64,000 bases of DNA from Azolla caroliniana. Lineage: Eukaryota > Plantae > Polypodiophyta. The notes under the pieces are model-generated. The model saw nothing but the letters and a program-made list of their open reading frames with translations. It made no database searches and had not been told where the DNA came from. The translations under genes were made by a program, and so were the position numbers. Each line of letters begins with the position of its first letter. The stretch's first letter is position 1. The stretch covers positions 24,180,001-24,244,000 of the forward strand of contig JBHGNT010000004.1 of NCBI GenBank assembly GCA_043228905.1. Direction: 5' to 3'. Shown piece by piece: positions 7,608-60,365 of this stretch.

Positions 7608-8239
7608 GTCCGACAGTACTTCGTCCCCTCTAGCGCGCGATCCCCTCTCTCCCCCGTCTCCCTCTCTTTTATAGCTCAAGGAGGGAGGCCGTTTCACCCG
7701 TTTACATCACATTAATTCTCTGTCCTTTCGGACAGAGATACTCCTCGATTTCCCTTATAGAATATTGCTACCTAGGATTTAACCTTTGTGCCTACCTATC
7801 TACTATACGACAAGGGGCGTGCCCACGTGTAAGGGCCGGTTCACACACATTATACACAGTTTGCGCCTGGGGACAGTTTTCTTCACGACATCCGCTCCCA
7901 CCTAACCGTGCATCCATCGGTATGCCACAAAATGGGGTTCCTACGGGAGAAAACCGATCCTTGCTTTTATTCTTCGTTTACCGGTTCATCCTCCGCCTCG
8001 GGCTGCTCGTCGTTGCTGTCCATGCCCCCTAGCTCCGACTCACCGTCGTGTCGTTTCTTGAATGCTTTGATCCTCTTCCCTGCTACCGGTATCGCCATTC
8101 TCGTACCGTTGTCGTGAAGAAAACCGTCCATAGGCGGAATCGGCGCACCTAGGCGTGGGAACCGGTTCTTCACGCGCGCAAGCTCCAAGTTGTACGAAGA
8201 AGCGAGTTAGGAGGATAATCGGCAGGAACGGGCGGAGCC

Positions 8240-11029
8240 GTGGAGGCAGTCTCCTTCGACGACACCTTGGGAATGCTGGGGAAGGTAGTCGAAGAAGACC
8301 TTAACGAAGACCGGACGATACCGGTGTGTTCCGAAGAAATGTACGAAGTCATCGCGGACTTCGGTCGAGGGCTCGAGTCGGAACGGACGGCCCGAGTGAG
8401 CACCAAGTACAAGACGGTGGACCGGAAGGTGAGGCCAGTTGCGGCGCCCTTACCGGAGGGCAGTGAATCCTGGATTAAAGGGGTTGCATCGGACCCCAGC
8501 TTACGAGATCGGGCCTGCATAGGACACACCTTCACCAACGAGACGCTCCGCGAGCTGAAGATCGGTGGGGGCGGGTTCCTACTGCCGGCGGAGGAAGACC
8601 GGTTCCGGAGAATGCTCGGAAGGCACGGGAAAGCCTTCGCATTCTCGCCGGAGGAAATCGGGTGCGTGGACCCGACGATCGTAGAGCCGATGGTGATATT
8701 CACGGTACCTCATGTACCGTGGAATCTCAAGCCAATTTCGGTTCCGAGAGCTCACATCCCGAAGTTGATGGAGCTGTTGAAGCAGAAAGTTGATATGGGC
8801 ATTCTCGAGCCGTCGAGCGCCCCGTATTCAAACCGCTGGTTTACCGTACCAAAGAAAAACGGATCATTGCGCTTCATTCAGGACCTGCAGCCGGTCAATA
8901 GAGTGACCATTCGGAACGCAGGGATCGGACCGACCATAGACGAGTTCGCGGAGGCCTTCGCCGGAAGGTCGATTTACTCGGTCGGTGATCTATACTCAGG
9001 GTACGACCAGTTCCAGCTAGCCGTGGAAAGCAGAGACATTACGACGATGCAAACTCCCCTCGGCCTAGTGCGGATGTGTACGCTGCCGCAAGGAGGGACC
9101 AACTCGGTGGCCCACATGGTGAATGCGATGAACAAGGTGCTGAGGGACTGCATCCCGGACATCACCATGCCGTTTCTAGACGACATCCCGATCAAGGGAT
9201 GCCCGGTAGAAGAGAAGAACGAGACGGTCGGGCCGGACGGATGCCGGCGATTCGTGATGGCGCACATCGACGACTGCGAGAAGGTGCTGCAAAGGCTAGA
9301 GGATGCGAGGCTCACCTTCTCGGGGGAGAAATCAGCCTTCGGGCAGTCGGAAATCATGGTGGTCGGACACTTATGTGGGCCATATGGCCGGAAACCGTCT
9401 CCGGCAAAGGTAGAAGCCATCTCCGCGATGAAGCCCGACTGCAGCTCGGTCACGGAAGTACGAAGATTCCTGGGGGCATGCGCATTCTACCACATATGGA
9501 TCCCGCATTACGCCCACGTTGCGGAGCCGCTATACGGATTATTGAGGAAAGGGCGAAGATTCGAATGGCTAGACAAGCACACGGAGTCGGTCCGGAAGCT
9601 GAAGGAGGCTCTTTCGGCAGCACCGGCGCTCCGAAAGGCCGTCTACAGGAAGGGCACCCCAGTGTACATAACGGTTGACACGAGTCCAACCGGAATCGGG
9701 TGGGTCGTCAACCAAGAAGACGAGGACGGCAATCGGTTTCCGATCCGATTCGGCGCGAAGGTCCTCAGCGAACGGCAGCGAGGATACACCCAGGTTAAAC
9801 GCAAACTCTGGGGTATCGTTTCGGCGGTGAAGGCCGACAAGGACTATCTGATCGGGACGGAGGTAATCATAGAGACGGATTGCATGCCGATTCTCGGCAT
9901 GGTTTCCGGATGCGCGACGCCGGACTTGGCAATGCTCAGGTGGATAGCGTATATCAAGTCCCTAGACCCGGTAATACGACACATTTCCGGGAAAGACAAC
10001 GCCATGGCCGACATGCTTTCAAGGGCGAGATTTGATGACGAGGGCGGCATGGTTTCGGAGGACGAAGAGGTCGGCGTGGACTTCTTCGAGACTGCGTATG
10101 TAACAACCGACGGAACAAGCACTCCGGCGCTTAGCGACTTCGACGCGAGCAAGTACGACGGGGAGTGGCTGCAGATCGGTGGGTTTTTGAAGACAATGAC
10201 GCCCGATGCGTCATGGACGAAGGACGAGGCCAACCGGATCCGGAAGAAAGCGTACCGGTTCTTTCTCCGGGATGGCTATCTATGGAAGCACCCGAAGAAG
10301 AGGGACGGCGCTCCGCTCCGGGTGGTGGCGATGAAGGAAGAACAGGAGGAGTTGCTGACGGCCTACCACGACAGCCCTTGGGCTGGACACCGTGGAACAT
10401 GGGCTACGTTTGAGAAACTGAAGGGGAAGTATTGGTGGCCGGGGCAGTACCAGGACGTGCATCGGTTCGTGACAACTTGCGAGAGCTGTCAGATGCACTC
10501 CATAGTCCGACATCGGGACGAGCTTCACCCCACGTACCCTCCGACCATCCACTTCAAATGGATGGTAGATCTGGTGACGATGCCAATGGGGGTAGGACAG
10601 ATGCGGTACCTGGTCCTAGCGCGGGAGGATCTGACGAACCAGGTGGAAGGCCGGGCCCTTCCGAACAAAACGACCGCGGCCGTATGCCGGTTCCTAATCG
10701 AGGACGTGATATGCCGGTACGGGTGCGTCGGGAAGATCGTGGCTGACCGAGGGGAGTTGGACGCCGAAGAAGCCGCGGAGCTGTTCGACCGGCTGGGAGT
10801 CAAGCTCTCGCTCACCACTGCGTACAATCCGGAGGCGAATGGAAAGGTGGAGCGCGGACACGGACCGATCGTCAAGGCGTTGGTTCGGGCATGCAGAGGC
10901 CGAGTCGGTAACTGGCCGCGGCTGCTACCTTATGCTTTGTGGGCGGACCGGACCACGCACAGTTCGGTAACCGGGTACATGCCGACGGAGCTCATGTTCG
11001 GCCAGAAGCCGATCATGCCGATGGAACGG
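8240..11029 (+). pseudogene. pol: Element A pol (RT-RNase H-integrase), split by B; resumes at 18204-18677
   Basis: DLYSGYDQ, LPQG, FLDD, DTS, integrase HHCC and D,D,E motifs. Confidence 0.92.
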
Positions 11030-11753
11030 TGTCGTGAAGAAAACCGCCCACAAGAGGAATCGGAGGAACAAGGCGTGGGAAACGGCTCTACACACACACG
11101 CGCGCCAAGAAGTACCTAAGGACGAAGTAGGTACATACGAGGATCCTAGGTGGGTAGATTCGGTTGGTATGCAGTTAATGCCAAACGGCCTCTTGACGGG
11201 CTATAAAAGGAAGAGGAAGAATAGAAGTGGTTTTTTTTTTTCGCCCGCGGAGAGGACGAAGTGCTGCCGAACCGATTTCGGAGCTTCTCTCTCACTCCGG
11301 CTCTCTCTGTCTTCTGCTCCATCGCGTACCTGTGCAGGTTTCGAGGAGGCTCGCGCTGTTCCGTGGAACGCCCCGAGTGCGTCCTGCAGCACCTCCGACC
11401 TGTTTTCCCTTTCTGTGCGTCGCGACATACGGGGGGGTCGGCAGCTGTTCGCCGCCCTGTTCGTTTTCGTTAGTATCTATTTTGTGCCCCGCCGTGGGTT
11501 GTAATACTTTAGTCTGTTATTTTCTTGCATTCGTAAGTACATATCTCTCGCTATTGCGTCCATCTGCGTCGGCGTTTATTTGTGATCTCTGTTTGTTGGG
11601 CCGTGTCCCTGTGCAATCGTCGGCTCTGCGCAATCGGATCTTCGGTTCTGTGTAATCGGGTCTCTCTTACTCCTCTCTCTCTTGCTCTTCGGTTCGAGAC
11701 CCCCGTGGTCCCTCCTCCTTTCTACACGCAAGGGCGTAGCAACCCCGACATCT

Positions 11754-11770
11754 TGGTGAACCCGACGTGA
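11754..11770 (+). promoter_or_regulatory. Primer binding site, tRNA-Trp
   Basis: TGGTGAACCCGACGTGA is complementary to the plant tRNA-Trp 3' end (TCACGTCGGGTTCACCA). Equivalent sites at 25295, 26525, 30167, 36411 and 52578. Confidence 0.88.
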
Positions 11771-11793
11771 AAGAGGCGGCAGAAGAGTAGGAA

Positions 11794-13920
11794 ATGAAGG
11801 GGGCGGATCTTGCAGAGGCCATGGCTTCGGCCGTGGATCGGATAGTAAGCGCGCGCGAGGGCACCGGCGCCCTCGATAGAGCTATTGAGGCGGTCGTCGG
11901 AACGATCGGTCGATTCACCGGAAAAGATGCCACGAAGTACCTGGCGTCCTACGGTGCGGAAATGTTAATGCGGGACATTCCGGAAGACAGGCGTCTGGCC
12001 GGTTTTCCCCGAGTGGCGATGCCGAGCATCCACGCGGAGGTGCTCGAGGTGCGGGCGGAGAGCCGTACCTGGGAGGAGTTCGAAGGTCGGCTCCTGGAAA
12101 AATACGGACTGGACGACGCGCTCCGGCTTTCGAAGCGAAGCTTCATGGAGTGGGTGGAGTCTCCCGGGAAGGGAAGGAATGCGTCGGCACTCCTCCGGGA
12201 GTTCGAGGAGAACTTCGCGCGCCTTTCGGCGCTTGACAGGATGGTCCTGGATACAAGCCGGGTCCTGCTGTTCGTCAAATCGGTTGACGAGAGGGATCGG
12301 AGTCACGTGGGCGCCCTGCTAGAAACCGAAGATGGGCTGACAACCGACTGGGCGGCGGTCAAGAGAGCCTGCGGCCGTTTCGACAAACGGCGAGAATGGG
12401 AGGATGACAGAGCAACCGGGTCGGGCTCAGTCGCGGCGAGGAAACTCGAGCCGGCGCAGCCGGTGCGAAGGGAAGAGACTCGGGAGTGGTTGGAATCCGG
12501 TTCGGCTCCGACCGGCGTGATCGGAGGCTCGACTGGGGGAGCTGCGTTGGAGGAACTGACGAGGGCGATAAAAGACCTCCAAATCGCACAAGCCCACAGA
12601 GAAGGCGGAGGACCTGCTCGTGACCGACGGCCGGCGGCAGGGAACAGGTGCATGTGGTGCGACGGGGTCGGCCACATCCGAAAAGACTGCGGCGATTTCG
12701 CAGAGGCGCTGAGGAACCGGGTGGTGTACCTATGGGAAGGCCGGGTTCACGCCAACGACACGAGAAGGGCCCTAAACCGAAACGACGGGCGAGGCGGAAT
12801 GAAGAGGTTGATGGAAGAGGCGGCGGCCCGACATGCGGAAACCGTCCACTACTCGGCGTCGGCCGGCATTCGAGTCGGGGGCGGCGAGGCCCGAAAGGAA
12901 AGCAAAGCCGGATTCTGGCCGACGATGCTAGAAGGCCTTGCCGGTGCAGGGCTTAAAAGGGAGGAATCGGACCGTGCGGAGAAACGGGTGCGGGAGATGA
13001 CCGGGTGGAGCGACCCGGTCGAGGAAAAGACGGGCTTCGTGGAAGCCGCTTGCAGGAACTACGAGGCCCTGGTAGAAGAGAAGCGGGTGGGGAAACCCGG
13101 GACGACCGGGCCCTCACAACGATACGAGACCCGGTCCGGGCCACGACGGGACGAAGCCGGCGGGGCCGGTACGCAAGGTAAACCCCAGAAGGGCGGATAC
13201 CGTCTGGGGACGGAGATAGAAAGAACCACGGACTTACGGAAGGTCCTGGAGGAACGGATCCTCGACAGCAAGGTGGAGCTGTCGCTACGGGAGGTGCTAG
13301 GAATCGCCAAGAAGGAGTTCCACGACTCCATCGTGGACTTGGTGAAACGGAAGAGGCTGTCAACGGAGGCAGAACCGGAAAGTCCGGTGGAAGTGCGGAC
13401 GACGCACCTGGACGACATGGCGCTGGAAGACGAGTGGGCGGAGAGCCACTATTCGCGGCCACACTGGGCCCGAGCGACCACGGAAACCCCGGTAAAGATC
13501 GGCGATGTCCAGGAACCGGTAGTAGCTTTGGTGGACCACGGATCGGAAATCAACCTGATGTCCATGGACTTCTATAAGAAGGGCAAATGGCCGATCAACA
13601 CCAAGCACGGGTGGAAGATAAGGGCGGCGACGCGCGCCACCGAGGAACTTCACGGGGCCTGCCCGAATGTACGGGTCAAGATCGGCGATGTCGAGATAGA
13701 CCAGCACTTCTTCGTGCAGGAGTCGTCATCGCACCCCGTCATACTGGGAGAGCCGTACATCACGGCGGCTCGAATGGAGACCAAGGTGCTGGACAACGGT
13801 TCGGCCTATGCGCGGGTCAAGAGCCAGGACGGGCGCCATTCGGTCCAGTTTTTGACGGTTAGGCCGAACCACGAGCGTAACCGCGACTCCCTCGGTTCCG
13901 ATAACCGAGAGGATTTTTAG
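11794..13920 (+). CDS. gag: Gag-protease polyprotein (708 aa)
   Basis: CMWCDGVGHIRKDC knuckle; protease motifs ALVDHGSEIN and VILGEP. Confidence 0.93.
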   Translation: MKGADLAEAMASAVDRIVSAREGTGALDRAIEAVVGTIGRFTGKDATKYLASYGAEMLMRDIPEDRRLAGFPRVAMPSIHAEVLEVRAESRTWEEFEGRLLEKYGLDDALRLSKRSFMEWVESPGKGRNASALLREFEENFARLSALDRMVLDTSRVLLFVKSVDERDRSHVGALLETEDGLTTDWAAVKRACGRFDKRREWEDDRATGSGSVAARKLEPAQPVRREETREWLESGSAPTGVIGGSTGGAALEELTRAIKDLQIAQAHREGGGPARDRRPAAGNRCMWCDGVGHIRKDCGDFAEALRNRVVYLWEGRVHANDTRRALNRNDGRGGMKRLMEEAAARHAETVHYSASAGIRVGGGEARKESKAGFWPTMLEGLAGAGLKREESDRAEKRVREMTGWSDPVEEKTGFVEAACRNYEALVEEKRVGKPGTTGPSQRYETRSGPRRDEAGGAGTQGKPQKGGYRLGTEIERTTDLRKVLEERILDSKVELSLREVLGIAKKEFHDSIVDLVKRKRLSTEAEPESPVEVRTTHLDDMALEDEWAESHYSRPHWARATTETPVKIGDVQEPVVALVDHGSEINLMSMDFYKKGKWPINTKHGWKIRAATRATEELHGACPNVRVKIGDVEIDQHFFVQESSSHPVILGEPYITAARMETKVLDNGSAYARVKSQDGRHSVQFLTVRPNHERNRDSLGSDNREDF

Positions 13921-13976
13921 AGAGGGCTGCCAAGGCGTGGGGCCGCGACAGTCCGGACACCCCGGGAAAACCCCAC
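13911..13976 (+). promoter_or_regulatory. -1 ribosomal frameshift signal: G GAT TTT plus H-type pseudoknot
   Basis: The heptamer lies directly before the gag stop and the -1 frame is the pol frame. Stems GGGCTG/CAGTCC and GTGGGG/CCCCAC covary across copies. Confidence 0.85.
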
Positions 13977-16900
13977 ACCTGTACGATAAAACCGAAGAAA
14001 CCTTGTACCATAGGTAGGGAATTTTTGTTCTCCGACAGCGGAGCGTGCACGATAGTCGGCATCGGCGGCCGAGAGAAGACAAAGGCGGAGGGGAGACTTC
14101 GAGCGTGCGGAGTTCTCGGCCCTGACGAGGAAATCAACGGAGCCGTGGAGGCGGTCTCATTCGACGACACCTTGGGAATGCTGGGAAAGGTAGTCGAAGA
14201 AGGCCTTAACGAAGACCGGACGATACCGGTGTGTTCCGAGGAGATGTACGAAGTCATCGCGGACTTCGGTCGAGGGCTCGAGTCAGTTCGGACGGCCCAC
14301 GTAAGCACCAAGTACAAGACTGTGGACCGGAAGGTAAGGCCGGTCGCGGCACCCTTACCGGAGGACAGCGCGTCGAGAATCAAAGGGGTTGCATCGGACC
14401 CTAGTCTACGAGATCCGGCCTGCATAGGGCACACCTTCACCGACGAGACGCTCCAAGAGCTCAAAATCGGTGGGGCCGGGTTCCTACTGCCGGCGGAGGA
14501 AGACCGGTTTCGGAGAATGCTCGGAAGGCACGGGAGAGCCTTCGCATTCTCGCCGGAGGAAATCGGGTGCGTTGACCCGACGATCGTGGAGCCGATGGTG
14601 ATATTCACGGTACCGCATGTACCATGGAATCTCAAGCCGATCCCGGTTCCGAGAGCTCACATCCCGAAGTTGATGGAGCTGCTGAGGCAGAAAGTTGATA
14701 TGGGAATTCTCGAGCCGTCGAGCGCCCCATATTCGAATCGATGGTTTACCGTACCGAAGAAAAACGGTTCGTTGCGTTTCATCCAGGACCTGCAGCCGGT
14801 CAATCGAGTGACCATTCGGAACGCTGGGATCGGACCGACCATAGACGAGTTCGCGGAGGCCTTCGCCGGAAGGTCAATTTACTCGGTCGGGGATCTATAC
14901 TCAGGGTACGACCAGTTCCAGCTAGCCGTGGAGAGCAGAGACATTACGACGATGCGAACTCCCCTCGGCCTAGTTCGGATGTGTACACTGCCGCAAGGAG
15001 GGACCAACTCGGTGGCCCACATAGTGAATGCGATGAACAAGGTTCTGAGGGACTGTATCCCGGACATCACCATGCCGTTTCTGGACGACATCCCGATCAA
15101 GGGATGCCCGGTGGAAGAAAAGGACGAGACGATCGGGCCGGACGGATGCCGGCGATTCGTGGCGACGCACATCGACGACTGCGAGAAGGTGCTGCAAAGG
15201 CTAGAGGAAGCGAGACTCACCTTCTCCGGGGAGAAGTCGGCCTTCGGGCAGTCAGAAATCGTGGTGGTCGGACACCTGTGCGGACCCTATGGCCGGAAAC
15301 CGTCTCCGGCAAAGGTAGAAGCCATCTCCGCGATGAAGCCCGACTGCAGCTCGGTCACGGAAGTACGGAGATTCCTGGGGGCATGCGCGTTCTACCACAT
15401 ATGGATCCCGCATTACGCACACGTCGCGGAGCCACTGTACGGGTTGCTGAAAAAGGGGCGAAGGTTCGAATGGCTAGACGAGCACGCGGAATCGGTCCGG
15501 GAGCTGAAAAAGGCCCTTGCAGTGGCACCGGCACTCCGGAAGGCGGTATACGGGAAGGGTACCCCGGTATTCATAACGGTGGATACCAGTCCGACCGGGA
15601 TCGGATGGGTCGTGAACCAGGAAGACGAGGACGGCAATCGGTTTCCGATCCGATTCGGCGCGAAAGTCCTCAGTGAACGGCAGCGAGGATACGCCCAGGT
15701 TAAACGCGAACTCTGGGGTATTGTTTCGGCGGTTAAGGCCGACAAAGACTACCTGATAGGGACAGAAGTGATCATCGAGACGGATTGCCTGCCGATTCTC
15801 GGTATGGTTTCCGGATGCGCGACTCCGGACCTGGCGATGCTCAGGTGGATAGCGTACATCAAGTCCCTGGATCCGGAGATACGACACATTTCCGGGAAAG
15901 ACAACGCCATGGCCGACATGCTTTCGAGGGCGAGGTTTGACGACGAGGGCGGCATGGTTTCGGAAGACGAAGAAGTCGGCGTGGATTTCTTCGAGGCGGC
16001 ATACATAACGACCGACGGGATGAGCACTCCGGCGCTTAATGAGTTCGACGCGAGCAAGTACGACGGGGAGTGGCTGCAGATCGGCGGGTTTTTGAAGACA
16101 ATGACGCCCGATGCTTCATGGACGAAGGACGAGGCCAACCGGATCCGGAAGAAAGCATATCGATTCTTTCTCCGAGATGGGCATTTGTGGAAGCACCCGA
16201 AGAAGAGGAACGGCGTCCCGCTCCGGGTGGTGGCGATGAAGGAAGAACAGGAGGAGCTACTGGCGGCCTACCACGACAGCCCTTGGGCTGGACACCGTGG
16301 AACGTGGGCGACATTTGAGAAGCTGAAGGGGAAGTACTGGTGGCCGGGGTTGTACCAGGACGTGCACCGGTTCGTGACAACTTGCGAGAGCTGCCAGATG
16401 CACTCCATTATCCGACATCGAGACGAGCTTCACCCTACGTACCCTCCGGCCATCCATTTCAAATGGATGGTAGATCTGGTGACGATGCCGATGGGGGTAG
16501 GACAGATGCGGTATCTGGTCCTAGCGCGGGAAGACCTGACGAACCAGGTGGAAGGCCGAGCCCTTCAGAACAAGACGACCGCGGCCGTGTGTCGGTTCCT
16601 GATCGAGGACGTGATATGCCGGTACGGGTGCGTCGGGAAGATCGTGGCTGACCGAGGGGAGTTGGACGCCGAGGAAGCCGCGGAGCTGTTCGATCGGCTG
16701 GGAGTCAAGCTCTCGCTCACCACTGCGTACAACCCGGAGGCGAATTGAAAGGTGGAGCGCGGACACGGGCCGATCGTTAAGGCGCTGGTTCGGGCATGCG
16801 GAGGCCAAGTCGGTAACTGGCCACGACTTCTACCTTATGCTTTGTGGGCAGACCGGACCACGCACAGTTCGGTAACCGGGTACATGCCGACGGAGCTCAT

Positions 16901-17408
16901 GTTCGGCCAGAAGCCGATCATGCCGATTGAACGGACGATCTCCTCGTGGGCAACGGTCGACTGGAGGGACGAGATGAGCCGGGAGGAGTTGTTGACCGCA
17001 CGTATACGACAGCTCGAGCGGAGACCGGAGGACGTGGCACTGGCTACGAAGAAGCTCCGGGTGGCGAGGAGAAAGAACAAAGCCCGGTTCGACCGGACGC
17101 ACCGGCTACGACCGAAGAAAATCGACGAAGGTGACTGGGTGCTCGTCTACGACAGCAGCCTCGACAACCAGCACCGAGCAACGCGGAAGTTCGCACGGAG
17201 ATGGTTCGGGCCGTACACGGTACAGAGCGCCAACGACAACGGGACGTATCATCTGGCGGAGCTCGACGGTACGAGAATAGCGATACCCGTGGCCGGGAAG
17301 AGGATCAAAGCTTTCAAGAAGCGGCACGACGACGAACCCGACCCGATTCTCCTGGACAGCAGCGACGACCGATCCGAGGCCGAGGAAGGGCCGGCAGGCG
17401 AAGAGTAG
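13911..17408 (+). pseudogene. pol: Element B pol (RT-RH-IN) with one premature stop (GGA>TGA at 16746-16748)
   Basis: ORFs 14025-16748 and 16752-17408 share a frame; sibling copies read EANGKVERGH. Confidence 0.93.
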
Positions 17409-20400: not shown

Positions 20401-20511
20401 AGCTTTCGCAAGTCATCACGAACCGATGCACGTCCCGATATAGTCCCGGCCACCAGTACTTCCCTTTTAGCTTTTCGAACATGGCCCACGTTCCACAGTG
20501 TCCAGCCCAAG

Positions 20512-20798
20512 TGTCGAATACATGTGTATAATGGACGTATTCACACTATCCCGTTTTGGCCATTTATGTAATTAGCATAAAGGGTAGTTGCCCTAAGTCG
20601 GTCACTATATATAGTGACCTTGTAACTTTTTTGTAAGGTTGGATGTTGTATTAGTGCTTTGAGAAATAAGAAAGTTTTTTGTGCCTCTCTCTCTCTCTCA
20701 CTCTCTCTCTGTTAAACGACATAGAAACAGTCATACGCAGGTATTCAGAAGACTCGAATGCTTCTTGATCTTCCGCATTGACGACCTCGTCTCCAACA
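20512..20798. mobile_element. 287-bp solo LTR, probably Copia, with 5-bp TSD CCAAG
   Basis: TG..CA termini; ccaag at 20507-20511 and 20799-20803; TATA and (CT)n inside; interrupts HDSPW|AGH of C. Confidence 0.85.
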
Positions 20799-33482: not shown

Positions 33483-33489
33483 ATGAACG

Positions 33490-39959: not shown

Positions 39960-40118
39960 GGTTACGGAGCCGGATGATGAAGACCCCGGCTACGGAGCCG
40001 GATGATGAAGACCCCGGCTACGGAGCCGGATGATGAAGATCCCGGCTACGGAGCCGGATGATGAAGACCCCGGCTACGGAGCCGGATGATGAAGACCCCG
40101 GTTACGGAGCCGGATGAT
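39960..40118 (+). repeat. 28-bp tandem array in the Copia U3 (tacggagccggatgatgaagaccccggc)
   Basis: 5 full units plus a partial one here; 4 plus a partial one in the 3' LTR. Confidence 0.92.
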
Positions 40119-44694: not shown

Positions 44695-46212
44695 AGGGGG
44701 AGTTTGTTGGGATTTCGGTCCCTCCGTATGGGATGTCCGGAGATGAATAACGGCAAGCCCGGTTGCGGTTACGGAGCCGGATGATGAAGACCCCGGCTAC
44801 GGAGCCGGATGATGAAGACCCCGGCTACGGAGCCGGATGATGAAGATCCCGGCTACGGAGCCGGATGATGAAGACCCCGGTTACGGAGCCGGATGATGTA
44901 TGTACCCGGAGCGAGATCCGGATGCGGGGACATATTTGTGAATATGTTTGCCAAGGGCCCTTGAGGCTATATTTGTAAATAGCCCGAAAGTCATATGCGT
45001 ATAAATATGACTTAGGGCAAACAGCTGCTGTCGTTGCTCATTTTTCATGCGAAGTGAGAGCAGCCGAGAGAGAAAGAAAGAGAGAGAGGGAGAGAGACGA
45101 AGAGGTCGTTGCCTCTGTGTATTACCGCCGCCTGTGGCGAAGACAGTGAGCTCAAGGTTGTTGCCTTGTAGCTTCACCATTGTACATCTCTGTGTATAGT
45201 GATAGTTGGAGTTTGAGGACTCCCGTGGTTTTTTTCCCATTTAGGGTTTTCCACGTAAAACACCCTGTGTACTCTCCTCTCCATTGTTCTCGTGCACTTT
45301 GTATTCCCTGTTTTTCTGTGTGTTGATCCTATTCCTCGGTTGTGGCCGAGCACGTAATTTCAACACCATGTTGTGCGGTTCGGTTAAAACAAGTACATGG
45401 CGCATCACTATGCGTACATCACGCGTGTAGCGGAAGTGCATGAGTCAGAGCCCTACGCGGAAGCGGCAAAAGATGCGAATTAGCATGCCACGATGGAGGA
45501 AGAGATGCGCGCATTGGCTGAAAATGAAAATTGGGACCTAGTTGACGCACCGAAAGGTGTGAAGCCGATCGGATGTAGGTGGGTGTACAAGGTCAAGTAC
45601 AACACTGACGGCTCGGTCAACCGATACAAGGCCCGGTTAGTAACAAAAGGTTACGCGCAGCAACATGGCATCGACTACGATGAGACGTTTGCACCAGTCG
45701 TGAAGATGACGATCGTCCATGTTTTGCTCATGGTAGCTACGGCAAAGGGGTGGCACTGACATCAGATGGATGTAAAGAATGTGTTCCTACAAGGTGAGCT
45801 TGAGGAACAAGTGTACATGGTACAGCCCCCGGATTTCACTCTGGAACGAACACTTTGGCGGTGTGCCAGTTGAAGAAGTCCCTTTACGGACTAAAGCAAG
45901 CCCCGCGTGCCTGGAACGCGAAGATCATGCGGCAACTGCGTCGGATGGGCTTTGTGACATTGAAATCGGACTCCTCACTGTTCATCCGGAAAGGTCGACT
46001 CGGGCCGGTTAGCATTTTACTTTATGTTGATGATTTGGTCATCACCGGCGCCGACCTAGGTGAGAATGACCACGTGAAGCTCCAGCATGCGGCATCATTT
46101 GACATGAAGGATCTAGGGAACCTTCATTACTTCCTCGGAATCGAAGTGATCCGCACCCCCGAAGGCATACTGATCAGCCAACGGCATTACATTGTTGCGT
46201 TGTTACGCACGT

Positions 46213-49200: not shown

Positions 49201-52200
49201 CCGGCCCGAGTGTCTCGTCCTTCTCTTCCACCGGGCACCCCTTTATCGGGATATCGTCTTGAAACGGCATGGTGATGTCTGGGATGCAATCCCTCAGTAC
49301 TTTGTTCATTGCATTCACCATGTGGGCCACTAAGTTGGTCCCTCCTTGTGGCAGGGTACACATTCGCACTAGGCCGAGGGGAGTTCACATCGTCGTAATG
49401 TCTCTGCTCTCCACGGCTAGCTAGAACTGGTCGTACCCCGAGTACAGATCTCCGACCGAGTAAATCGACCTTCCGGCGAAGGCCTCCGCGAACTCGTTTA
49501 CGGTCGGTCCGATTCCTACGTTCCGAATGGTCACTCTGTTGACCGGCTGCAGGTCTTGAATGAAGCGTAATGTTCCGTTTTTTTTTGGTACGGTAAACCA
49601 TCGGTTCGAGTATGGGACACTTGACGGTTCGAGAATGCCCATATCGACTTTCTGCCTCAATAGCTCCATCAACTTCGGGATGTGAGCTCTCGGTACTGGA
49701 ATCGGCTTGAGATTCCACGGTACATGCGGTACCGTGAATATCACCATCGGCTCCACGATTGTCGGGTCTACGCACCCGATCTCTTCCGGTGAGAATGCGA
49801 AGGCTTTCCCGTGCCTTCCGAGCATCCTCCGAAACCGGTCTTCCTCCGCCGACAGTAGGAACCCGCCCCCACCGATTTTGAGCTCCCGGAGCGTCCCGTC
49901 GGTGAAGGTGTGTCCTATGCAGACCGGATCTCGCAAACTGGGGTCCGACGCAACCCCTCTGATCCGGGACTCGCTGCCCTCCGGTAAGGGTGCCGCAACT
50001 GGCCTTACCTTCCGGTCCACAGTCTTGTACTTCGTGCTAACTCGGGCCGTCCAATCCGACCAGAGCCCCTGACTGAAGTTCGCGATGATTTCGTATATCT
50101 CTTCAGAACATATCGGTATCGTCCGGTCTTCGTTAAGGTCTTCTCCGGCTACCTTCCTCAGCATCCCCAAGGTGTCGTCGAAGGAGACCGCCTCCACGGC
50201 TCCGCTGGTTTCCTCGTCCGGGCCGAGAACTCCGCACACTTGAAGTCGCTCCTCCGCCCTTCCCTTTTCTCGGCCAACGATGCCGACTATCATACACCCT
50301 CCGTTGTTGGAGAGGCAAAAAATTTTACTTATCGTACAGGGTTTCTTCGGTTTCGGTTCTATCGTACAGCTGCGGGGTCTTTCCCGAGTGTCTGGACTGT
50401 CTCGGCCCCACACCTTGGCAGCCCTCTCTAAAAATCCTCTCGGTTCTCGCCACCGAGGGATTCGCGGTTTCGCTCGTGGTTCGGCCGCACCGTCAGAAAT
50501 TGGACCAAATGGCGCCCGTCCTGGCTTTTCACCCTCGCATAGGCCGAACCGTTGTCCAGCACCTTGGTCTCCATTTGCGCCGCCGTGATATACGGTTCCC
50601 CTAATATGACCGGGTGCGAGGACGTCTCCTGTACGAAGAAGTGCTGGTCAATCTCGACGTCGCCGATCTTGACTCACACGTTTGGGTAGGCCCCGTGCAG
50701 TTCCTCGGTGGCGCGCGTCGCCGCCCGTATCTTCCACCCGTGCTTGGTGTTGATCGGCCACTTTCCCTTCTTATAGAAGTCCATGGACATCAGGTTTATT
50801 TCCGAACCGTGGTCCACCAATGCCACCACCGGTTCCTGAACATCTCCGATCTTTATCGGGGTCTCTGTGGTCGCTCGGGCCCAGTGCGGCCTTGAATAGT
50901 GGCTCTCCGCCCACTCATCTTCCAGCGCCATGTCGTCGATGTGCGTCGTCCGCACCTCCACAGTTCTTTCCAGTTCCGTCTCCGTCGACAGCCTCTTCTA
51001 TTTCACCAGGTCCACAATGGAGTCGTGGAACTCCTTCTTGGCGATCCCTAGCACCTCCCGCAATGACAGCTCCACTTTGCTGTCGAGGATCCGTTCTTCT
51101 AGGACCTTTCGTAGGTCCATGGTCCTTTCTATTTCCGTCCCCAGTCGGTATCCGCCCTTCCTGGGGTTATCTTGCGTGCTGGACCCACCGGCATCGTTCC
51201 GTCGTTGCCCGAATCGGGTCTCGTATCGTTGTGAAGGCCCGGCCGCTCCGGCTTTCCCCACTTGTTTGTCTTCTACCAGAGCCTCGTAGTTCCGGCAGGC
51301 GGCTTCTACGAAGCCCGTCTTCTCCTCGACCGGGTCGCTCCACCCGGTTATTTCCCGGACCCGTCTCTCAGCGCGGTCCGCTTCATCTTTCCTCAGTCGC
51401 GCGCCGGTGAGGCCTTCCAGCATTGCCGACCAGAATCCGTCTTTGCTCCCCTTTCGGGCCTCGCTACCCCCGACCCGAATGCCGGCCGACGCCGAGTAGT
51501 GGATGGCCTCCACGTGTCGGGCCGCTGCCTTTTCCATCAGTCTCTTCATACCTCCTCGCCCGTCGTTCCGGTTTAGGGCCCTTCTGGTATCGCTGGCATG
51601 CACCCGGCCTTCCCACAGGTACTCCACCCGGTTCCTCAACGCCTCTGCGAAATCGCCGCAGTCCTTCCGAATGTGGCCGATCTTGTCGCACCACATGCAC
51701 CTGTTCCCTGCTGCCGGCCATCGGTCACGAGCCGGTTCGCCGCCTTCCCTTCGAGCCTGGGCGATCTGGAGATCCTTTATCGCCCACGTCAACTCCTCCA
51801 GCGCTGCTCCTCCGGACGAGCCATTGACCATGCCGGTCGAAGCCGAACCGGTTTCGAGCCACTCCCGGGTCTCTTCCCTTCGCCCTTGTGGTGCCGGTTC
51901 AAACCTCCTTGCTGTGACCGAGCCCGCACCAGCCGCCCCGTTATCAGCCCATTCTCGCCGTTTGTCGAAACGGCCACAAACTCTCTTAACCGCAGCCCAG
52001 TCGGTCGTCAGCCCGTCTTCGGTTTCCAGCAAGGAGCCGACTTGATCCCGGTCCCGCTCGTCCACCGACTTGATGAACAGTAGGACCCGGCTCGTATCCA
52101 GAACGGTTCGGTCAAGCGCCGAAAGGCGCGCAAAGCGTTCCTCAAACTCCCGGAGGAGTGCCGACGCGTTTCTTCCCTTGCCGGGGGACTCCACCCATTC

Positions 52201-53245
52201 CATGAAGTCCCGTTTCGAAAGCCGGAGCGCGTCGTCCAGCCCGTATTTCTCTAGGAGTCGGCCTTCGAACTCCTCCCAGGTACGGCTCTCCGCCCGTACG
52301 TCGAGCACCTCCGCGTGGATGCTCGGCATCGCCACTTGAGGGAACCCGGCAAGACGCCTCTCTTCCGGAATGTCCCGCATCAGCATTTCTGCCCCGTAGG
52401 ACGCCAAATACTTCGTGGCATCCTTTCCGCTGAACCGGCCGATCGTACCGACGACCACCTCAATGGCTCTGTCAAGGGCGTCGGTGCCCTCGCGTGCGCT
52501 CAATATCTGATCCACGGCCGAAGCCATGGCCTCCGCAAGATCCGACCCCTTCATCTTCTGCTCTTCTGCCGCCTCGTTCACGTCGGGTTCACCAAGATGT
52601 CGAGGTATTCCTCGCGGATACATGGAATGAGGCAGGACCTCGGGGGTCTTGTACCGAAGAGCAATAGGGAAAGGAGAAGGGAAGGGACCCACTACGTGCG
52701 AGCTTAGATCCACAGGGACACGGCCCTTCGACACGAAGACGCGAGCGGGGAAACCAACACAGAGAGGCACAAAGGTATGTAAGTATATATTAACAGAGAC
52801 AAACAACAAGAAGCACGAAGTCGGTTACAACCGAACAGGCCGGCGAACAGATGTCGATGCCTGTTCGCAAACGCTCAAAAGGAAAGGAGTAGGTTGGAGG
52901 TGCTGCCGGAAGCACTCGGGCATTCCTCAGAGCAGCGCGAGCCTCCCGAAACTTGCACAGAAAGAAGCTACGAAGAGTATGGAAGAGAGAGAAGCCTTCG
53001 ACCGACAACCCGACAGCACTTCGTCCCCTCTGATTCCGCGATCCCCTCCTCCTCCTCGTCTCCCCCCTTTTATAGGCAAGAAAGGAGTCGTTTCCCATTA
53101 AATTCCTTCCTACCGAATCTACCTACCTAGGATCTTCTATGTACCTAACTCTCTCTTATGTACAACATAAGGCGCACGTGCATGAAGAGCCGGTTCCTAC
53201 GCTCCGGTGCACCGATTCCGCTTGTGGACGGTTTTCTTCACGACA
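46213..53245 (-). mobile_element. Gypsy element K, full length: LTRs 46213-46860 and 52598-53245 (648 bp each), TSD ACGT
   Basis: acgt at 46209-46212 and 53246-53249; PBS 52578-52594; gag 52553-50428 and pol 50437-46934 carry several stops; roughly 15-20 LTR differences by eye. Confidence 0.95.
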
Positions 53246-56200
53246 ACGTGCATATAGAACAAGGCGGGACCACGGGGGACTTGGACCGAGGAATAACCGA
53301 TAAGTAGTAGGAGCAAGAAAGACAACGGCCGTGCCTCCACACACACGTGCACAGATACACTGAAACCACAACCAAATGAAACAACGGGAACGAGACGAAT
53401 GCGTATATGTATATATATATTCTGATGAAAAAGGGGTTACAACCGGCAAGCCGATGAGCGACGAATCTCCTACGCCTACGCACATGCACACAAAGGAGCA
53501 AGATGGAGACTCTGCCGGAAGCACTCGGGCATTCCACGGAGTAGAGTCAGCCTCTCGAAAACCTGCACCGAGCAAATACAAACAAAGACGGAGGAGAAGA
53601 GCTCGGTCCCAGTCCGACAGCACTTCGTCCTCGACTAAAGCAATCCCTTTTACGATTCCTCTTCCTCTCTTTTATAGCCCAAGGAGGGAGGTCGTTACAA
53701 CTTGTTACATCATCTTTATTCTCTATCCTTTCGGACAAAGATATGCCTCGACTTCCTACCTATCAAATCCATGCGACCTAGGATATTCACATCAGCCGAC
53801 TTGTACCTAAATATGTATATTACAACAAAACTTGTGCTTGCATGTAAGGGCCAGTTCGTGCACATCATTCTCCGATTCCGCCTAGGGACGGTTTTCTCCA
53901 CGACATCCACCCCCACCTAACCACGCATCCACCGGTATGCGCCAAAATGGACTCTTGCCGGAGAAGACCGGCATGCGCTTACCAGTTGTTCTCTGGATCG
54001 CCATTCGCTCCGAACCAATCGTCCTCGCTACCCAAGTCGTCTAGGTCCGGTTCATCCTCGTGCCGCTTTTTGAGCGCTTTGATCCTTCTTCGCCACAACC
54101 CGGAGCGGGATGTCATTTCTCTTCTTCGGGTGCTTCCATATCCACCCATCCCATAGGAAGAATCGGTACGCTTTCTTCCGAATCTGGTTGGTCTCTTCCT
54201 TCGTCCATGCCACGTCTGGTGTTATTGTCTTTAGGAACCCACTGATCTGGAGCCACTCCCCGTCGTACTTGCTCTCGTCGAACTCGTTGAGCGCCGGAGT
54301 GCTCCCCTTCCTTATTGTTACGTAAGCCGTCTTGAAGAAGTCCACGCCGACTTCTTCGTCCTCCGAAACCATGCCGTCCTCATCATTGAATCTCTCCCTC
54401 GAAAACATGTCGGCCATGGCGTTGTCTTTTCTGGAAATGTGTCGTATTTCCGGATTCAAGGACTTGATGTACGCTATCCACCTGAGCATGGCCAGGTTTG
54501 GGGTCGCGCATCCGAAAACCATATCGAGAATCGGCAGGTAGTTCGTCTCAATTATCACCTCCGTCCCGATCAGATAGTCTTTGTCGGCCTTGACCGCCAA
54601 AACGATACCCCAGAGTTCCCGTTTAACCTGGGCATACCCTCGTTGTTGTTCACTGAGGACTTTCACGCCGAACCGGATGGGGAATCTCGTGCCATTCTCA
54701 TCCTCCTGGTTGATCACCCATCCGATTTTGGTTGGACTCGTGTCTACGGTCACGTAAATCGGAATGTCTTTACCGTAAACCGCTTTCCGGAGTGCCGGCG
54801 CCGCAGCAAGTGCTTCTTTCATTTTCCGGACCGACTCCGTATGCTCCTCTCTCCACTCAAATTTACGCCCTTTCTTCAGCAATCCATAGAGCGGCTCCAC
54901 GATGTGGGCGTAATGCGGGATCCAAATATGGTAGAATGCGCACGCTACCAAGAATCTCCGGACTTCCGTGACCGAATTGCAGTCGCGCTTCATCGCGGAG
55001 ATGGCCTCTACCTTGGCCGGCGACGGTTTCCGACCGAATGGCCCGCATAGGTGTCCGACGACCATGATCTCTGATTGCCCGAAGGCCAATTTTTCCCCGG
55101 AGAAGGTGATTCTCGCGCCTTCTAGTCTTTGCAGCACCTTCTCGCAATCATCGACGTGGTCCGCCACGAATTTCTGGCAGCCGTCCGGTCCGATTGTCTC
55201 GTCCTTATCCTCCACCGGGCATCCTTTAATCGAGATGTCTTCTAAGAATGGCATGGTGATGTCCGGGATACAATCCCTTAGCACTTTGTTCATTGCGTTC
55301 ACCATGTGGGCTACCGAGTTCGTCCCTCCTTGCAGAAGGGTACACATCTGTACTAGGCCGAGAGGGGTCCGCAACGTCGTAATGTCCTTGCTCTCCATGG
55401 CTAGCTGGAACTTACTGTATCCCGAGTACAGATCACCGACCGAGTAAATTGACATTCCGGCGAAAGCCTCCGCGAACACGTCTATGGTCGGTCCTATTCC
55501 CGCATTCTGAATGATCACCTTGTTGACCAGTTGTAGGTCCTGAATGAAGCGCAGCGTGCCGTTCTTCTTGGGCACGGTAAACCACCAATTAGAATACGGG
55601 ACACTTGACGGTTCAAGCATGCCCATACCCACTTTTTGTTATAGCACCTCCATCAGCTTCAGGATGTGAGCTCTGGGTACTGGAATCAGTTTGAGATTCC
55701 ACGGTACATGCGGTACCGTGAAGATCACAATCGGTTCCACAATCGTCGGGTCTACGCACCCGATCTCCTCCGGCGAGAGTGTGAAGGCTTTTCCGTGCCT
55801 CCCGAGCATTCTCCGAAACCGGTCCTCCTTCGTCAGTAGTAGAAAGCCACCCCCACTGACCTTGAGCTCTCGTAGCGTTATGTCGGCGGAACGGTGTCCT
55901 ATGCCGGCCGGATCTCGTAAACTCGGGTCCGACGCGACCCCTTTCATCCGTAACTCGCTACCCTCCGGCAAGGGTGCCGCGACTGGCCTTGCCTTCTTGC
56001 CCACTCGGGCTGTCTGATCCGACTCGAGTCCTCTACCGAAGTCGATGATGACTTCGTACATCTTTTCCGAACATACCGGAATCGTCCGGTCTTCACTAAG
56101 GCCCTCTCCGAACACCTCCCGTAGCTTCCCCAAGGTGTCGTCGAAAGAGACTGCCTCCACAGCTCCATTGATATCCTCTCTGGGGCGAGGACTCTGCATG

Positions 56201-56754: not shown

Positions 56755-59469
56755 GACGAAGGTGGCACGCGTTTCCCTATCCGGTTCGGTGCGAAGGTAC
56801 TGAGCGAGCGACAACGAGGATACGCCCAAGTCAAGCGTGAACTATGGGGTATCATTTCGGCGGTTAAGGTCGACAAAGATTATCTAATTGGGACAGAAGT
56901 GATTATAGAAACAGACTGCTTGCCGATTCTCGGTATGGTCTCCGGATGCGCAACACCCGACCTGGCCATGCTTAGGTGGATTGCGTACATTAAGTCCCTG
57001 AACCCAGAGATACGACACATCTCGGGTAAAGACAACACTAGAGCAAGGTTCGAGGACGAGGATGGCATGGTATCGGAGAACGAAGAAATCAGCGCGGACT
57101 TCTTCGAATCGGCAAGGATGAGGATAAAAGGGAGAAGCGCTCCGCCCCTGAACGAGTTCGATGAAGACGACTACGACAGGGAGTGGCTTCTAATCGGAAG
57201 GTTTCTAAAAACAATGACGGCGGACCCCGTGATGACTAGGAAGGAGGCGGGACAACTCCGAAAAAGGGCATACCGGTACTTCTTACGGAACGGGAAAATT
57301 TGGAGGATCCCAAAAAGGCGAAACGACGCGTCACTCCGGGTAATAGCGCGGGCGGATGATCAAAAGAAGCTAATATCAGAGTTCCATGAAAGCCCTTGGT
57401 CTGGACACTGGGGTACATGGGCCACATTCGAGAAGATAAAGGAGAAATATTGGTGGCCGGGTATGTATAAGAGTGTGCACGACTTCGTGTCCACGTGTGA
57501 AAGCTGCCAGATGCACTCGGTCATTCGACACCAGCTGGACACTGGGGTACATGGGCCACATTCGAGAAGATAAAGGAGAAATATTGGTGGCCGGGTATGT
57601 ATAAGAGTGTGCACGACTTCGTGTCCACGTGTGAAAGCTGCCAGATGCACTCGGTCATTCGACACCGCGACGAGCTGCACCCAACCTACCCCCCAGCCGT
57701 GCACTTCAAATGGATGGTAGACTTAGTAACCATGCCGATGGGAGAGGGTTAAAAGTGATACCTGGTGCTAGCCAGAGAAGATCTAACAAACCAGGTAGAG
57801 GGCCGAGCACTAACGAACAAGACCACCGCGGCAGTATGTAAGTTTCTGATAGAAGATGTCATGTGCCGATACGGGTGCGTCGGAAAAATCGTGGCTGACT
57901 GAGGAGAGCTAGACGTGGAAGAGGCCGAAGAACTGTTCAATCGGCTAGGCATAAAACTATCCCTCACAACGGCTTACAACCCGGGGGCAAATGGAAAGAT
58001 AGAGCGGGGCCATGGTCTGATCATAAAGGTCATTGTACGCACGTGCGAAGGGCGAGTCGGCGATTGGCCGAGGTTGCTCCCTTACGCACTATGGGCGGAC
58101 CGGACTACCCACAGTTCGGTGACAGGGTACATGCCGGTGGAACTAATGTTCGAATAGAAACCCATCATGCCAGTAGAGTGGACGATCGCCTCGTGGACGA
58201 CGATCGATTGGGCCAACAAAATGACCCGAGAAGATTTGCTTGCGGCCCGGATCCGGCAACTCAAGCGAAGGCCAGAAGACGTGGAGCGGGCCACGGCAAG
58301 GGTGAAAGAAGCGAGAATCCGGAGCAAGGCCCAGTTCGATCGGACACACCGGCTCCGGCCAAGGAAGATCGAGGAAGGCGATTGGGTGTTAGCCTACAAC
58401 AGCAGCCTCGACAACCAGCATAGGTCTACGCGTAAGTTCGCAAAGCGATGGTTTGGGCCATATGTGGTAATTGGCGTCAACAATAACGCGACTTATCACC
58501 TCGCAGAGCTCGACGGGACCCGAATGACGACTCTAGTGGCTGGGAAGCGGATAAAGGCCTTCAAAAGGCAAAGCAAGGCAAAACCGGACCTAGGAGCCGA
58601 AAGGACCAGTTCAGAGGGGAAGGGGAAGTACCAGATGGCCCAGAATCCCTCACTAAAATCGTTGCCCGACACATAACGGAGTATGTGCGGTTTAGTGGGG
58701 GTGGATGTCGTGAAGATTCCGGCCCATCGGTAGAAAGAATGTGAAATGCGCGGGAGGACTAGTGTGCACGAGTGCACACCCCTAGTGAATTAGATAGTGT
58801 AAGGACTAGGCATAGGAAAAAGGAGGTGTACTAGGTAGTTAAAGCATTAATAGGGATTCAGACATCGCGTAAGTAGGGAGAGTTACGAGGAGAGCGAATC
58901 AGGGGGAGGAGAATTTAGGGAGTTAAAGCGACAAGGCCATGAATGCTTTGTAACGGTCTCTCCTTGTGCTATAAAAGGGACGACCCTCGACTGTTTTTTG
59001 GGGATGTCAATTTTAGAGAGAGAGGAGAAAAGGAAACAGAGAGAAAAGAAGACGAGTCCTATGACGTGCCACCGGAAGGCGCTTCCCCCGCTCGCGTCAA
59101 ACACCCGAGTGCTCCCGACCAGGGGATCGACCTTCTGTGTGCCCACTCATCTCTATATCTAACTACTGTAGAGCCTACGCTCGAACACCGGCACTTATCC
59201 GGTTGTAATCACCCATAGCGCCACGTGCATATATTGATAAATAGAAGCTTATCTACCGAACGCAAGCGATTCTTAGCATATCTATCTGTGCCTGTGTCTA
59301 CGCACGTTCCTCTTACACTATCTCTCTTGTTTTGCTAATCTTTCTGTTTAAACCGCGGTCTCAGGGCTCACGTAAACCACAGACTCTACCTCCTCACTTC
59401 TCAATTCCTTGGTTCAAGACCCCCATGGTCCTGCCCAACTTCTACGCATCTGCGAGGATTTCCTCAACA
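56755..59469 (+). mobile_element. Gypsy element L 3' part: RNase H-integrase relic and 3' LTR 58706-59469
   Basis: FPIRFGAKVL..integrase..KRWFGPY; PPT gtgggggtgga; TG..CA termini. Confidence 0.88.
57401..57666. repeat. 132-bp tandem duplication in the L integrase (57401-57532 / 57535-57666)
   Basis: Matching copies separated by 'ag'. Confidence 0.92.
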
Positions 59470-60365
59470 ACGGGCTTGTTCACCGTCGTCTCTCCGTGCC
59501 TATGCAATCTGGAGGTCCCTCACCATCTGAGTCAGCTCCTCCAAAGCCGCTCCTCTGGACGGGCCTTTGACCATGCTGGTCGAAGTCGAGCCGGCCTCGA
59601 GCCAATCTTGGGTCTTCTCCCTTCGCGTTGGTGGGGGTACCTCGAGCTTCCTTGCCGCAACAGAGCCCGCCCTCGACGAGCCTTTATCGACCCACTCACG
59701 CCGTTTGTCAAAACAGCCGCAGACTCTCTTCACCACGGCCCAGTCGGCCGTTAGCCCGTCATCGGTCTCCAGCAGGAGGCCCACTTGCTCCCGGTCCCTC
59801 ACGTCCACTGATTTAACAAATAATAGGACACGACTTGTGTCTAGTATGGTTCGGTCCAGCGCCGAAAGACGCATGAAGAGTTCTTCAAACTCCGGAGGAG
59901 CACCGACGCGTTTCTCCCCTTTTCGGGGGTCTCCACCCATTCCATGAAGTCCCGCTTCGATAGCCGAATCGCGTCATCAAGCCCGTATTTCTCAAGAAGC
60001 CGACCTTCAAACTCTTCCCAGGTCCGCCTTTCAACCCGTACCTCGAGCACCTCCGCGTGGATGCCCGGCATCGCCACCCGAGGGAATACGGCCAGTCGCC
60101 TGTCTTCCGGAATGTCCCTCATCACCATTTCGGCTCGATAGGCCTCCAAGTAGCTCGTGGCGTCCTTCCCACCGAACCGGCCTATTGTGCCGACGATTAC
60201 TTCAATAGCCCTATCGAGGGCGCTTGTGTACGTTTCAGTACTTCTGTCAGTCTGTATGGACTTTTATAAAAGTGCTCATTGAGCACATGCTATGTACAAA
60301 TTGAGTATTATTTTGAATTGAATTCCTATGTGTTCTCTCTCTCTCTCTCTGTCTCTCTCGCGTAC

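What the first reader, a model, noticed from the sequence alone, without database searches (positions are those of the whole stretch)
8106..59473. Gypsy lineage appears to integrate only into CpG-centred 4-bp targets (NCGN)
Seen in sequence. Two-sided TSDs are CCGT (8106/19524), ACGG (11026/18200), CCGG (30366/31036), ACGT (46209/53246) and ACGG/ACAG (35354/39748). One-sided flanks are CCGC (26000), GCGG (27190), ACGG (59470), TCAT (29533) and ACAT (46189). Eight of ten have CG at positions 2-3, and the other two have CA, the methyl-CpG deamination product; the ACGG/ACAG pair shows that decay directly. The rule holds across very different LTR types and the divergent element H. The 5-bp TSDs here (CCAAG, CCATG) do not follow it. 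Established: plant LTR elements mostly make 5-bp TSDs with weak sequence preference. Inference: a CpG- or mCpG-reading integrase with no obvious chromodomain would steer insertions into CpG-rich young elements and produce self-nesting islands like this one.
Basis: partly seen in the sequence, partly recalled or inferred. Interest (0 to 1): 0.85.

Follow-up and report, generated by a model that had tools for sequence, protein, structure and literature searches.

The report
Known Phygy-type retrotransposon targeting CG sites
These nested jumping genes do insert almost only at CG-centred four-base sites, but that habit was published in 2019 for the moss Phygy retrotransposons, the group they very likely belong to, so the finding is real yet already known.

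Summary
All 15 flanks are at the stated coordinates. Five elements carry 4-bp duplications (four exact, one ACGG/ACAG), and 8 of 10 sites have a central CG (P about 5e-8). Independent junctions of related LTRs in metagenome contigs give 66 of 72 CG, 5 TG/CA and 1 CT, against 3.5% CpG in the flanks.

It is in print: Neumann et al. 2019 (PMC6317226) give Phygy, 186 elements, as '4 bp (100%) (NCGN)' with an 81% tRNA-Trp primer site. These elements match: Trp primer site, no chromodomain, no extra RNase H, no extra ORF. They are slightly shorter (7.0-7.2 kb), and the defining phylogeny against REXdb could not be run.

Small additions: the motif is narrower (ACGT 29 of 66, first base never T), other flexible steps are excluded, and the integrase has an acidic residue or a gap where retroviral integrases carry a small target-contacting residue.

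Only 10 of 72 outside targets lie in same-lineage DNA, most flanks are CpG-poor, TCAT is not shown to be a decayed CG, and methyl reading is untested. Likely mechanism: direct read-out of CG by the integrase.

The parts
8106..8109 (+). Left TSD CCGT, in the integrase of element A
8110..19523 (+). Lineage element whose 5' LTR is cut to 124 bp (identical to the start of its 3' LTR 18749-19523) and joined to pol; element B is nested in its integrase
19524..19527 (+). Right TSD CCGT
11026..11029 (+). Left TSD ACGG of element B; the homologous uninterrupted site in B also reads ACGG
11030..18199 (+). Element B, 7170 bp, LTRs 11030-11750 and 17481-18199 (1 mismatch in 719 aligned bases)
11754..11770 (+). 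Primer-binding site matching the 3' end of tRNA-Trp (13 of 14 bases after TGG match a printed mammalian antisense Trp probe)
11791..13920 (+). gag-protease ORF of B (DUF4100 just under its cut-off, weak aspartyl protease hit)
13905..17408 (+). pol of B in an overlapping frame: RT, RNase H, integrase ending in an SH3-like domain and an acidic tail; no chromodomain, no second RNase H; one in-frame stop inside the integrase core
18200..18203 (+). Right TSD ACGG
7608..25999 (-). Element A (5' LTR ends at 25999, Trp primer site at 25311; 3' LTR cut to 7608-7890); host of the 8110 element and of a 5-bp-TSD solo LTR
26000..26003 (+). One-sided flank CCGC, in the gag of another lineage copy
26004..27189 (-). 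5' LTR, degenerate Trp primer site (26541) and gag start of a truncated copy; outer flank GCGG at 27190-27193
29533..29536 (+). One-sided flank TCAT in a copia RT; not supported as a decayed NCGN site
29537..33481 (+). 5' LTR, Trp primer site (30167), gag and pol fragments of an older copy
30370..31035 (-). Solo LTR, 666 bp, TSD CCGG at 30366 and 31036, in the gag of the 29537 copy
35358..39747 (+). Divergent element H (gag 45% identical to B, 1045-bp 5' LTR, degenerate Trp-like primer site, internal deletion), TSD ACGG/ACAG in a copia
46189..46192 (+). One-sided flank ACAT in a copia RT; one transition from the commonest target ACGT, empty site not seen
46193..53905 (-). 3' LTR of an older copy, split by element E 17-20 bases from its end
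46213..53245 (-). Element E, 7033 bp, LTRs differ at 18 of 648 bases (16 transitions), Trp primer site at 52594, TSD ACGT at 46209 and 53246
58706..59469 (+). 3' LTR with a decayed end; outer flank ACGG at 59470-59473 where a lineage gag resumes
20512..20798 (.). Control: solo LTR of another family with 5-bp TSD CCAAG
39898..45365 (+). Control: young copia with 5-bp TSD CCATG and an unbroken 1371-codon frame

Best explanation
These are short non-chromoviral Ty3/gypsy retrotransposons, very likely of the Phygy lineage, that leave a 4-bp duplication centred on CG, likely because their integrase reads the CG pair directly while bending the target there. Shown: 4-bp duplication, near-absolute central CG, ACGT favoured, no T at the first base, Trp primer site, no chromodomain, later decay of the CG to TG or CA. 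Inferred: the integrase cuts with a 4-base stagger and unstacks the central pyrimidine-purine step, as foamy virus integrase does. Bending alone would also admit CA, TG and TA, so base-specific contacts must be added; candidates are the conserved C-terminal loop (consensus-like motif D-S-x-L-x-x-Q-H...RKF) and the altered start of helix alpha2 (D-R-G-E/D). Methylation is probably not needed. Nests like this one would arise because the elements are themselves rich in acceptable sites and because insertions into repeat islands are tolerated.
For: Published Phygy profile: 186 elements, 4 bp (100%) NCGN, tRNA-Trp 81%, no extra domain or ORF. Window elements match on TSD, primer site and domains. 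Named protein relatives are from the liverwort Riccia and the fern Adiantum. 66 of 72 outer junctions are CG, and 13 of 16 clear junctions at the other LTR end. CG is only 14.5% of the flexible steps in the flanks, yet 66 of the 71 such targets (P=2e-49); ACGT is 29 of 66 against 6% expected (P=3e-18). The one CT site (L107) reads CCGT in the homologous host. The same LTR position was hit twice in opposite orientations (element E and L121). Non-CG sites are commoner in one LTR subtype (4 of 13 vs 2 of 59, P=0.008), which fits decay with age, though age was not measured. Serrao 2015: 4-bp integrases unstack a central YR step, avoid T at the joining site, and carry a small neutral residue at Ala188/Ser119. 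Here Glu aligns with Ala188 of foamy virus integrase, or a one-residue gap falls there against Ty3; 89 of the 92 homologues with the D-R-G motif have E or D next (120 examined). Drosophila ZAM-group elements prefer CGCG in a genome that lacks CpG methylation (recalled).
Against: No Phygy reference sequence was available, so the defining tree was not run; my tree holds no reference lineages. B and E (7170 and 7033 bp) are below the Phygy range of 7656-9968 bp. No Physcomitrium protein was among the listed hits. Ala188 contacts bases outside the duplication, so the alpha2 change need not explain the central CG. No structure or assay shows any contact. Flanks are CpG-depleted (median o/e 0.70), so many targets may have been methylated, which leaves methyl reading open. 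Only 2 of 8 two-sided solo LTRs in metagenome contigs had identical flanks.
Confidence: 0.62

Rival explanations
1. The integrase prefers or needs methylated CG, so the target rule doubles as a way to land in silenced DNA without a chromodomain.
For: Target CGs decay to TG/CA (5 of 72; ACGG/ACAG; CCGC/CTGC), so they were methylated at some time. Flanks are CpG-depleted (o/e 0.70-0.75). Many identifiable flanks are other retrotransposons. Phygy nests often into Tcn1 in Physcomitrium. [quoted passage not shown]
Against: Decay is equally expected from methylation that spreads after insertion. Some targets lie beside host gene-like frames (PIP5K in L011; a UDP-glycosyltransferase frame about 75 bases from the junction in L061). 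No methyl-binding family was found in pol at E<=1. CG-centred targets occur in Drosophila.
Confidence: 0.2
2. A host DNA-binding protein that recognises ACGT-core boxes, or a chromatin feature, tethers the integration complex, and the CG rule is secondary.
For: ACGT is the commonest target and is the core of plant bZIP/bHLH boxes (recalled). 13 of the 29 ACGT sites have C in front (counted by eye).
Against: 37 of 66 CG sites are not ACGT. The rule is exact to the base and symmetric, as expected from the two active sites of an intasome. Preferences beyond the duplication are weak. A bound factor would cover the bonds to be cut (inference).
Confidence: 0.1
3. The elements belong to an unnamed sister lineage of Phygy (or to Selgy or TatI) that shares the NCGN rule.
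For: They are shorter than all 186 Phygy elements. Relatives spread to Riccia and Adiantum, whereas Phygy was defined from one moss.
Against: Selgy uses tRNA-Ala and averages 5 kb; TatI has the extra RNase H, which is absent here. Neumann calls element size of little value for classification. Phygy domains are already reported from a liverwort.
Confidence: 0.08
4. The pattern is chance or a boundary artefact in CpG-rich repeat DNA.
For: The island has 7.8% CpG per position, and the LTR ends themselves contain CG.
Against: 66 of 72 independent junctions in flanks of 3.5% CpG; neighbouring offsets show 0-6 CG of 72; no 5- or 6-bp re-call fits.
Confidence: 0.01

Closest known systems
Phygy lineage, non-chromoviral Ty3/gypsy of Physcomitrium patens (Neumann et al. 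2019, PMC6317226)
   Same: 4-bp NCGN duplication, tRNA-Trp primer site, no chromodomain, no extra RNase H, no extra ORF, coding region fills the interior (vs 7, 30, 48, 69). Reported to nest into other elements (PMC6911290).
   Different: Elements here are 7.0-7.2 kb against 7.7-10.0 kb; the host is probably another seedless plant (not determined); the motif resolves to [ACG]CG[TGC] with ACGT dominant, which the paper does not give in the parts read.
Selgy (Selaginella) and TatI (club-moss) lineages, same paper
   Same: 4-bp duplication; TatI also uses tRNA-Trp.
   Different: No NCGN preference reported; Selgy uses tRNA-Ala; TatI carries an extra RNase H, absent here.
Drosophila ZAM-subgroup errantiviruses (PMC5408687)
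   Same: Sequence-specific, palindromic 4-bp targets, CGCG for one subgroup.
   Different: Insect elements; different motif; genome without CpG methylation (recalled).
Prototype foamy virus intasome (PMC4422553; PDB 3l2q, 3oym) and Ty3 pol (PDB 7q5b)
   Same: Closest solved integrases by sequence. Foamy virus has a 4-bp stagger, an unstacked central YR step and T avoided at the joining site.
   Different: Foamy virus accepts any flexible step weakly; here CG is near absolute, and the small alpha2 residue is replaced by Glu/Asp or deleted.

Membership tests
Phygy | RT, RNase H and integrase group with REXdb Phygy sequences (the primary criterion) | not testable with these tools
   The reference FASTA and element table of PMC6317226 are too large to read; the tree has no reference lineages.
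Phygy | 4-bp TSD of form NCGN | tested here: met
   5 of 5 two-sided sites in the window; 66 of 72 outer junctions; published profile.
Phygy | tRNA-Trp primer-binding site | tested here: met
   Clear in four copies, degenerate in two; 13 of 14 bases match printed mammalian Trp probes. The host's own tRNA gene was not found.
Phygy | No chromodomain | tested here: met
   No Chromo hit at E<=1 in 2 window integrase ends and 5 full homologues.
Phygy | No extra RNase H and no extra ORF; polyprotein fills the interior | tested here: met
   In B gag opens 40 bases after the 5' LTR and pol stops 72 bases before the 3' LTR; a single RNase H region.
Phygy | Length 7656-9968 bp (descriptive; the authors call size of little value for classification) | tested here: not met
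   B 7170 bp, E 7033 bp.
Phygy | Host is a moss | tested here: inconclusive
   Named pol relatives are Riccia and Adiantum; a host gene beside a related LTR has a fern as best full-length named hit, 57%. This points to a seedless plant only.
Selgy | tRNA-Ala primer site, 4.4-6.7 kb | tested here: not met
   Trp site and 7.0-7.2 kb.
TatI | Extra (archaeal-type) RNase H domain | tested here: not met
   None found in pol; none in the gag-protease frame.
Chromoviruses (Tcn1) | Chromodomain, 5-bp TSD, self-priming | tested here: not met

The most novel reading that the evidence does not exclude
This integrase is a natural methyl-CpG reader: it cuts only around a methylated CG, so it reaches silenced DNA by reading the DNA mark itself instead of a histone mark, and the conserved acidic alpha2 change and C-terminal loop of the lineage build that pocket.
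Probability: 0.15. Interest if true: 0.8.

Novelty: already known. Interest (0 to 1): 0.2.

Why it matters
The target rule itself is not news. Its value is as a tractable case: Phygy is the only plant LTR lineage reported with a sequence-specific target, and my searches found no paper on how it does this. This work adds a sharper motif from 72 junctions in a relative, shows that DNA flexibility alone cannot explain it, and names candidate integrase positions. If methylation turned out to be read directly, it would be a new route to heterochromatin targeting.

Tried and rejected
No genome is held for the window, so no genome-wide logo was possible. A scan of viral contigs for pol relatives found nothing. 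Laying public contigs on LTR B showed a high-copy family but gave no flanks; run shares and depths were not used as evidence. Two pattern scans for the host tRNA-Trp gene found nothing. The protein atlas gave only generic gypsy clusters. Gag homologues carried no informative names. The idea that the gag pieces ending near 7600 and at 59470 are one split element was dropped: they overlap in gag coordinates without a shared duplication. A tRNA-like stretch seen by eye in the LTR of H was not supported by ARAGORN or Rfam. No homologue of the copia host spanning 46189 was found among the 121 loci. The Kitamura 1992 paper is not held. Three look-ups in earlier findings returned nothing. The RLG2/RLG3 paper gave no TSD data in the passages seen. 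No structure prediction was run.
Full report
Observation. Self-comparison and protein mapping show a nest of about ten related gypsy copies and several copia copies. Five elements have both ends: 8110-19523 (CCGT), B 11030-18199 (ACGG), a solo LTR 30370-31035 (CCGG), E 46213-53245 (ACGT) and H 35358-39747 (ACGG/ACAG). None can be re-called as a 5- or 6-bp duplication. With 7.8% CpG per position in the island, 8 or more of 10 by chance has P=5e-8. The two 5-bp controls, CCAAG and CCATG, are real and belong to other families.

Independent test. No genome is held. I scanned metagenome contigs once with a 20-base LTR-start pattern. I set aside 11 chance matches (0 of 11 continue like an LTR), 38 internal junctions preceded by the polypurine tract, and 3 duplicates. 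Of the 72 remaining outer junctions, 66 have CG at positions 2-3, 4 TG, 1 CA and 1 CT. Flank CpG is 3.5%, and neighbouring offsets show 0-6 CG of 72. Without 8 junctions whose LTR continuation BLAST could not confirm, the count is 58 of 64. These LTRs are 70-91% identical to window LTRs (48 of the 50 long enough to compare match a window LTR, L105 matched only internal sequence, L113 nothing), so they are independent insertions in a related genome. At the other LTR end 27 rows were called; I dropped 11 (primer side, no flank or unclear end), and 13 of the 16 left are CG, 2 are decayed and 1 is neither. Against a clean picture: of 8 solo LTRs with both flanks, only 2 match exactly, 1 differs by CpG decay, 2 differ at base 4 and 3 are unrelated. 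Chimeric assembly or recombination between copies is the likely cause. The pattern also favours young copies with intact ends.

The motif. CG makes up 14.5% of pyrimidine-purine steps in the flanks but 66 of 71 such targets, so flexibility alone does not explain the choice. ACGT is 29 of 66 against 6% expected, and the first base is A 45, C 17, G 10, T 0. The single CT site reads CCGT in the homologous host, and one LTR position was hit twice in opposite orientations, by element E and in L121. The other, ACAT at 46189, could not be checked.

What the elements are. B encodes gag-protease and, in an overlapping frame, RT, RNase H and integrase with an SH3-like end and one in-frame stop in the integrase core. 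There is no chromodomain or second RNase H in the window copies or in 5 full homologues. The primer site matches tRNA-Trp. Named relatives are from Riccia and Adiantum; the closest (74-82%) are unnamed metagenome proteins. A tree of 42 RT-RNase H rows (40 selected from the 120 listed homologues, plus two window copies) puts the window copies in a supported group of unnamed rows, with Riccia rows outside it; it has no reference lineages and no true root. The host is probably a seedless plant.

What is known. Neumann et al. [quoted passage not shown] They list Phygy as 186 elements, 4 bp (100%) (NCGN), 7656-9968 bp, tRNA-Trp 81%, no extra domain. PMC6911290 (passages) reports mostly 4-bp TSDs for Phygy, GC-rich centres in 4-bp TSDs, and Phygy nested in Tcn1. 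PMC12885004 (passages) finds Phygy domains enriched at predicted liverwort centromeres. The elements here meet four of the tested Phygy features, miss the size range by about 500-600 bases, and could not be tested on the defining phylogeny. I put membership at about 0.9. Searches for 'Phygy' (18 papers listed) and 'NCGN' with 'retrotransposon' (3 papers) showed no study of the mechanism in titles and abstract starts; subscription journals are largely missing from the library.

Mechanism. Serrao et al. 2015 (PMC4422553; abstract and passages) describe a sharp bend that unstacks the central YR step in 4-bp integration, near-universal avoidance of T at the joining site, and a small neutral residue at Ala188/Ser119 that contacts bases outside the duplication. 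That accounts for the 4-bp length, a YR centre and the missing T, but not for CG alone. The lineage's integrase has D-R-G-E/D at that helix start (89 of 92 homologues with the motif, of 120 examined), aligned as Glu for Ala188 against foamy virus or as a one-residue gap against Ty3, and a well-conserved C-terminal loop. I infer direct read-out of the CG by the integrase, most likely without need of methylation (0.62 for the whole explanation). Drosophila ZAM-group elements prefer CGCG (PMC5408687, passages) in a genome that, as I recall, lacks CpG methylation. Methyl reading stays open (0.2): flanks are CpG-depleted (median o/e 0.70) and target CGs decay, but both follow equally from methylation after insertion. 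Of 107 flank frames scanned, 3 hit host-type families (PIP5K, UDP-glycosyltransferase, a weak carbamoyltransferase), 7 hit retrotransposon families and 1 a weak DUF.

Self-nesting. In the window 6 of 10 junctions lie in same-lineage DNA and 4 in copia remnants. Outside, 10 of 72 flanks are same-lineage, 7 resemble the window's copia copies and 55 neither. 30 of 72 flanks have under 2.5% CpG and 10 have 6% or more, and CpG density is no higher next to the site than 0.8-1 kb away. Lineage DNA offers 53 acceptable sites per kb against 14.5 in those flanks and 8.7 in the window's left flank. So the CG rule would raise self-insertion a few-fold, but the elements land readily in AT-rich DNA. Assembly bias makes the outside figure a probable underestimate.

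Verdict. A real, very strong pattern, correctly spotted, but already described as the signature of Phygy. Interest 0.2. The open and more interesting question, whether the CG must be methylated, is not answered by anything here.

Noticed in passing
window 1973-3977 (+): Broken reverse-transcriptase-like frames (YIDD motif near 3325) that resemble a Penelope-like element by recall; no Pfam hit at E<=0.01.
   Followed up: no
window 5431-5707 and 6369-6645: A 277-bp perfect direct duplication flanks a reversed copia LTR (5708-6372) instead of a short TSD.
   Followed up: no
window 39898-45365 and 60367-64000: Two copies of a young copia family (92% identical), the first with an unbroken 1371-codon frame; LTRs carry a 28-bp tandem array.
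   Followed up: partly
window 57401-57666: Perfect 134-bp tandem duplication inside an integrase zinc-finger region.
   Followed up: no
window 20512-20798: Solo LTR of another family that also begins TGTCG but has a 5-bp TSD; it would contaminate a TGTCG-based genome scan.
   Followed up: yes
window 56755-56764: Two lineage copies of opposite orientation are fused here, and several copies have lost RT-RNase H by internal deletion (for example near 33058).
   Followed up: no
window 35358-36402: The LTR of element H is long (1045 bp), has inverted termini at both ends and a GC-rich repeat block; a tRNA-like stretch seen by eye was not supported.
   Followed up: partly
L064 1523-1831 (+): A lineage solo LTR sits beside a chromodomain-bearing integrase end, as reported for Phygy in Tcn1; its TSD pair CCGC/CTGC shows CpG decay.
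   Followed up: partly
L061 919-1425 (-): UDP-glycosyltransferase frame about 75 bases from an insertion site; best full-length named hit a fern protein at 57%.
   Followed up: partly
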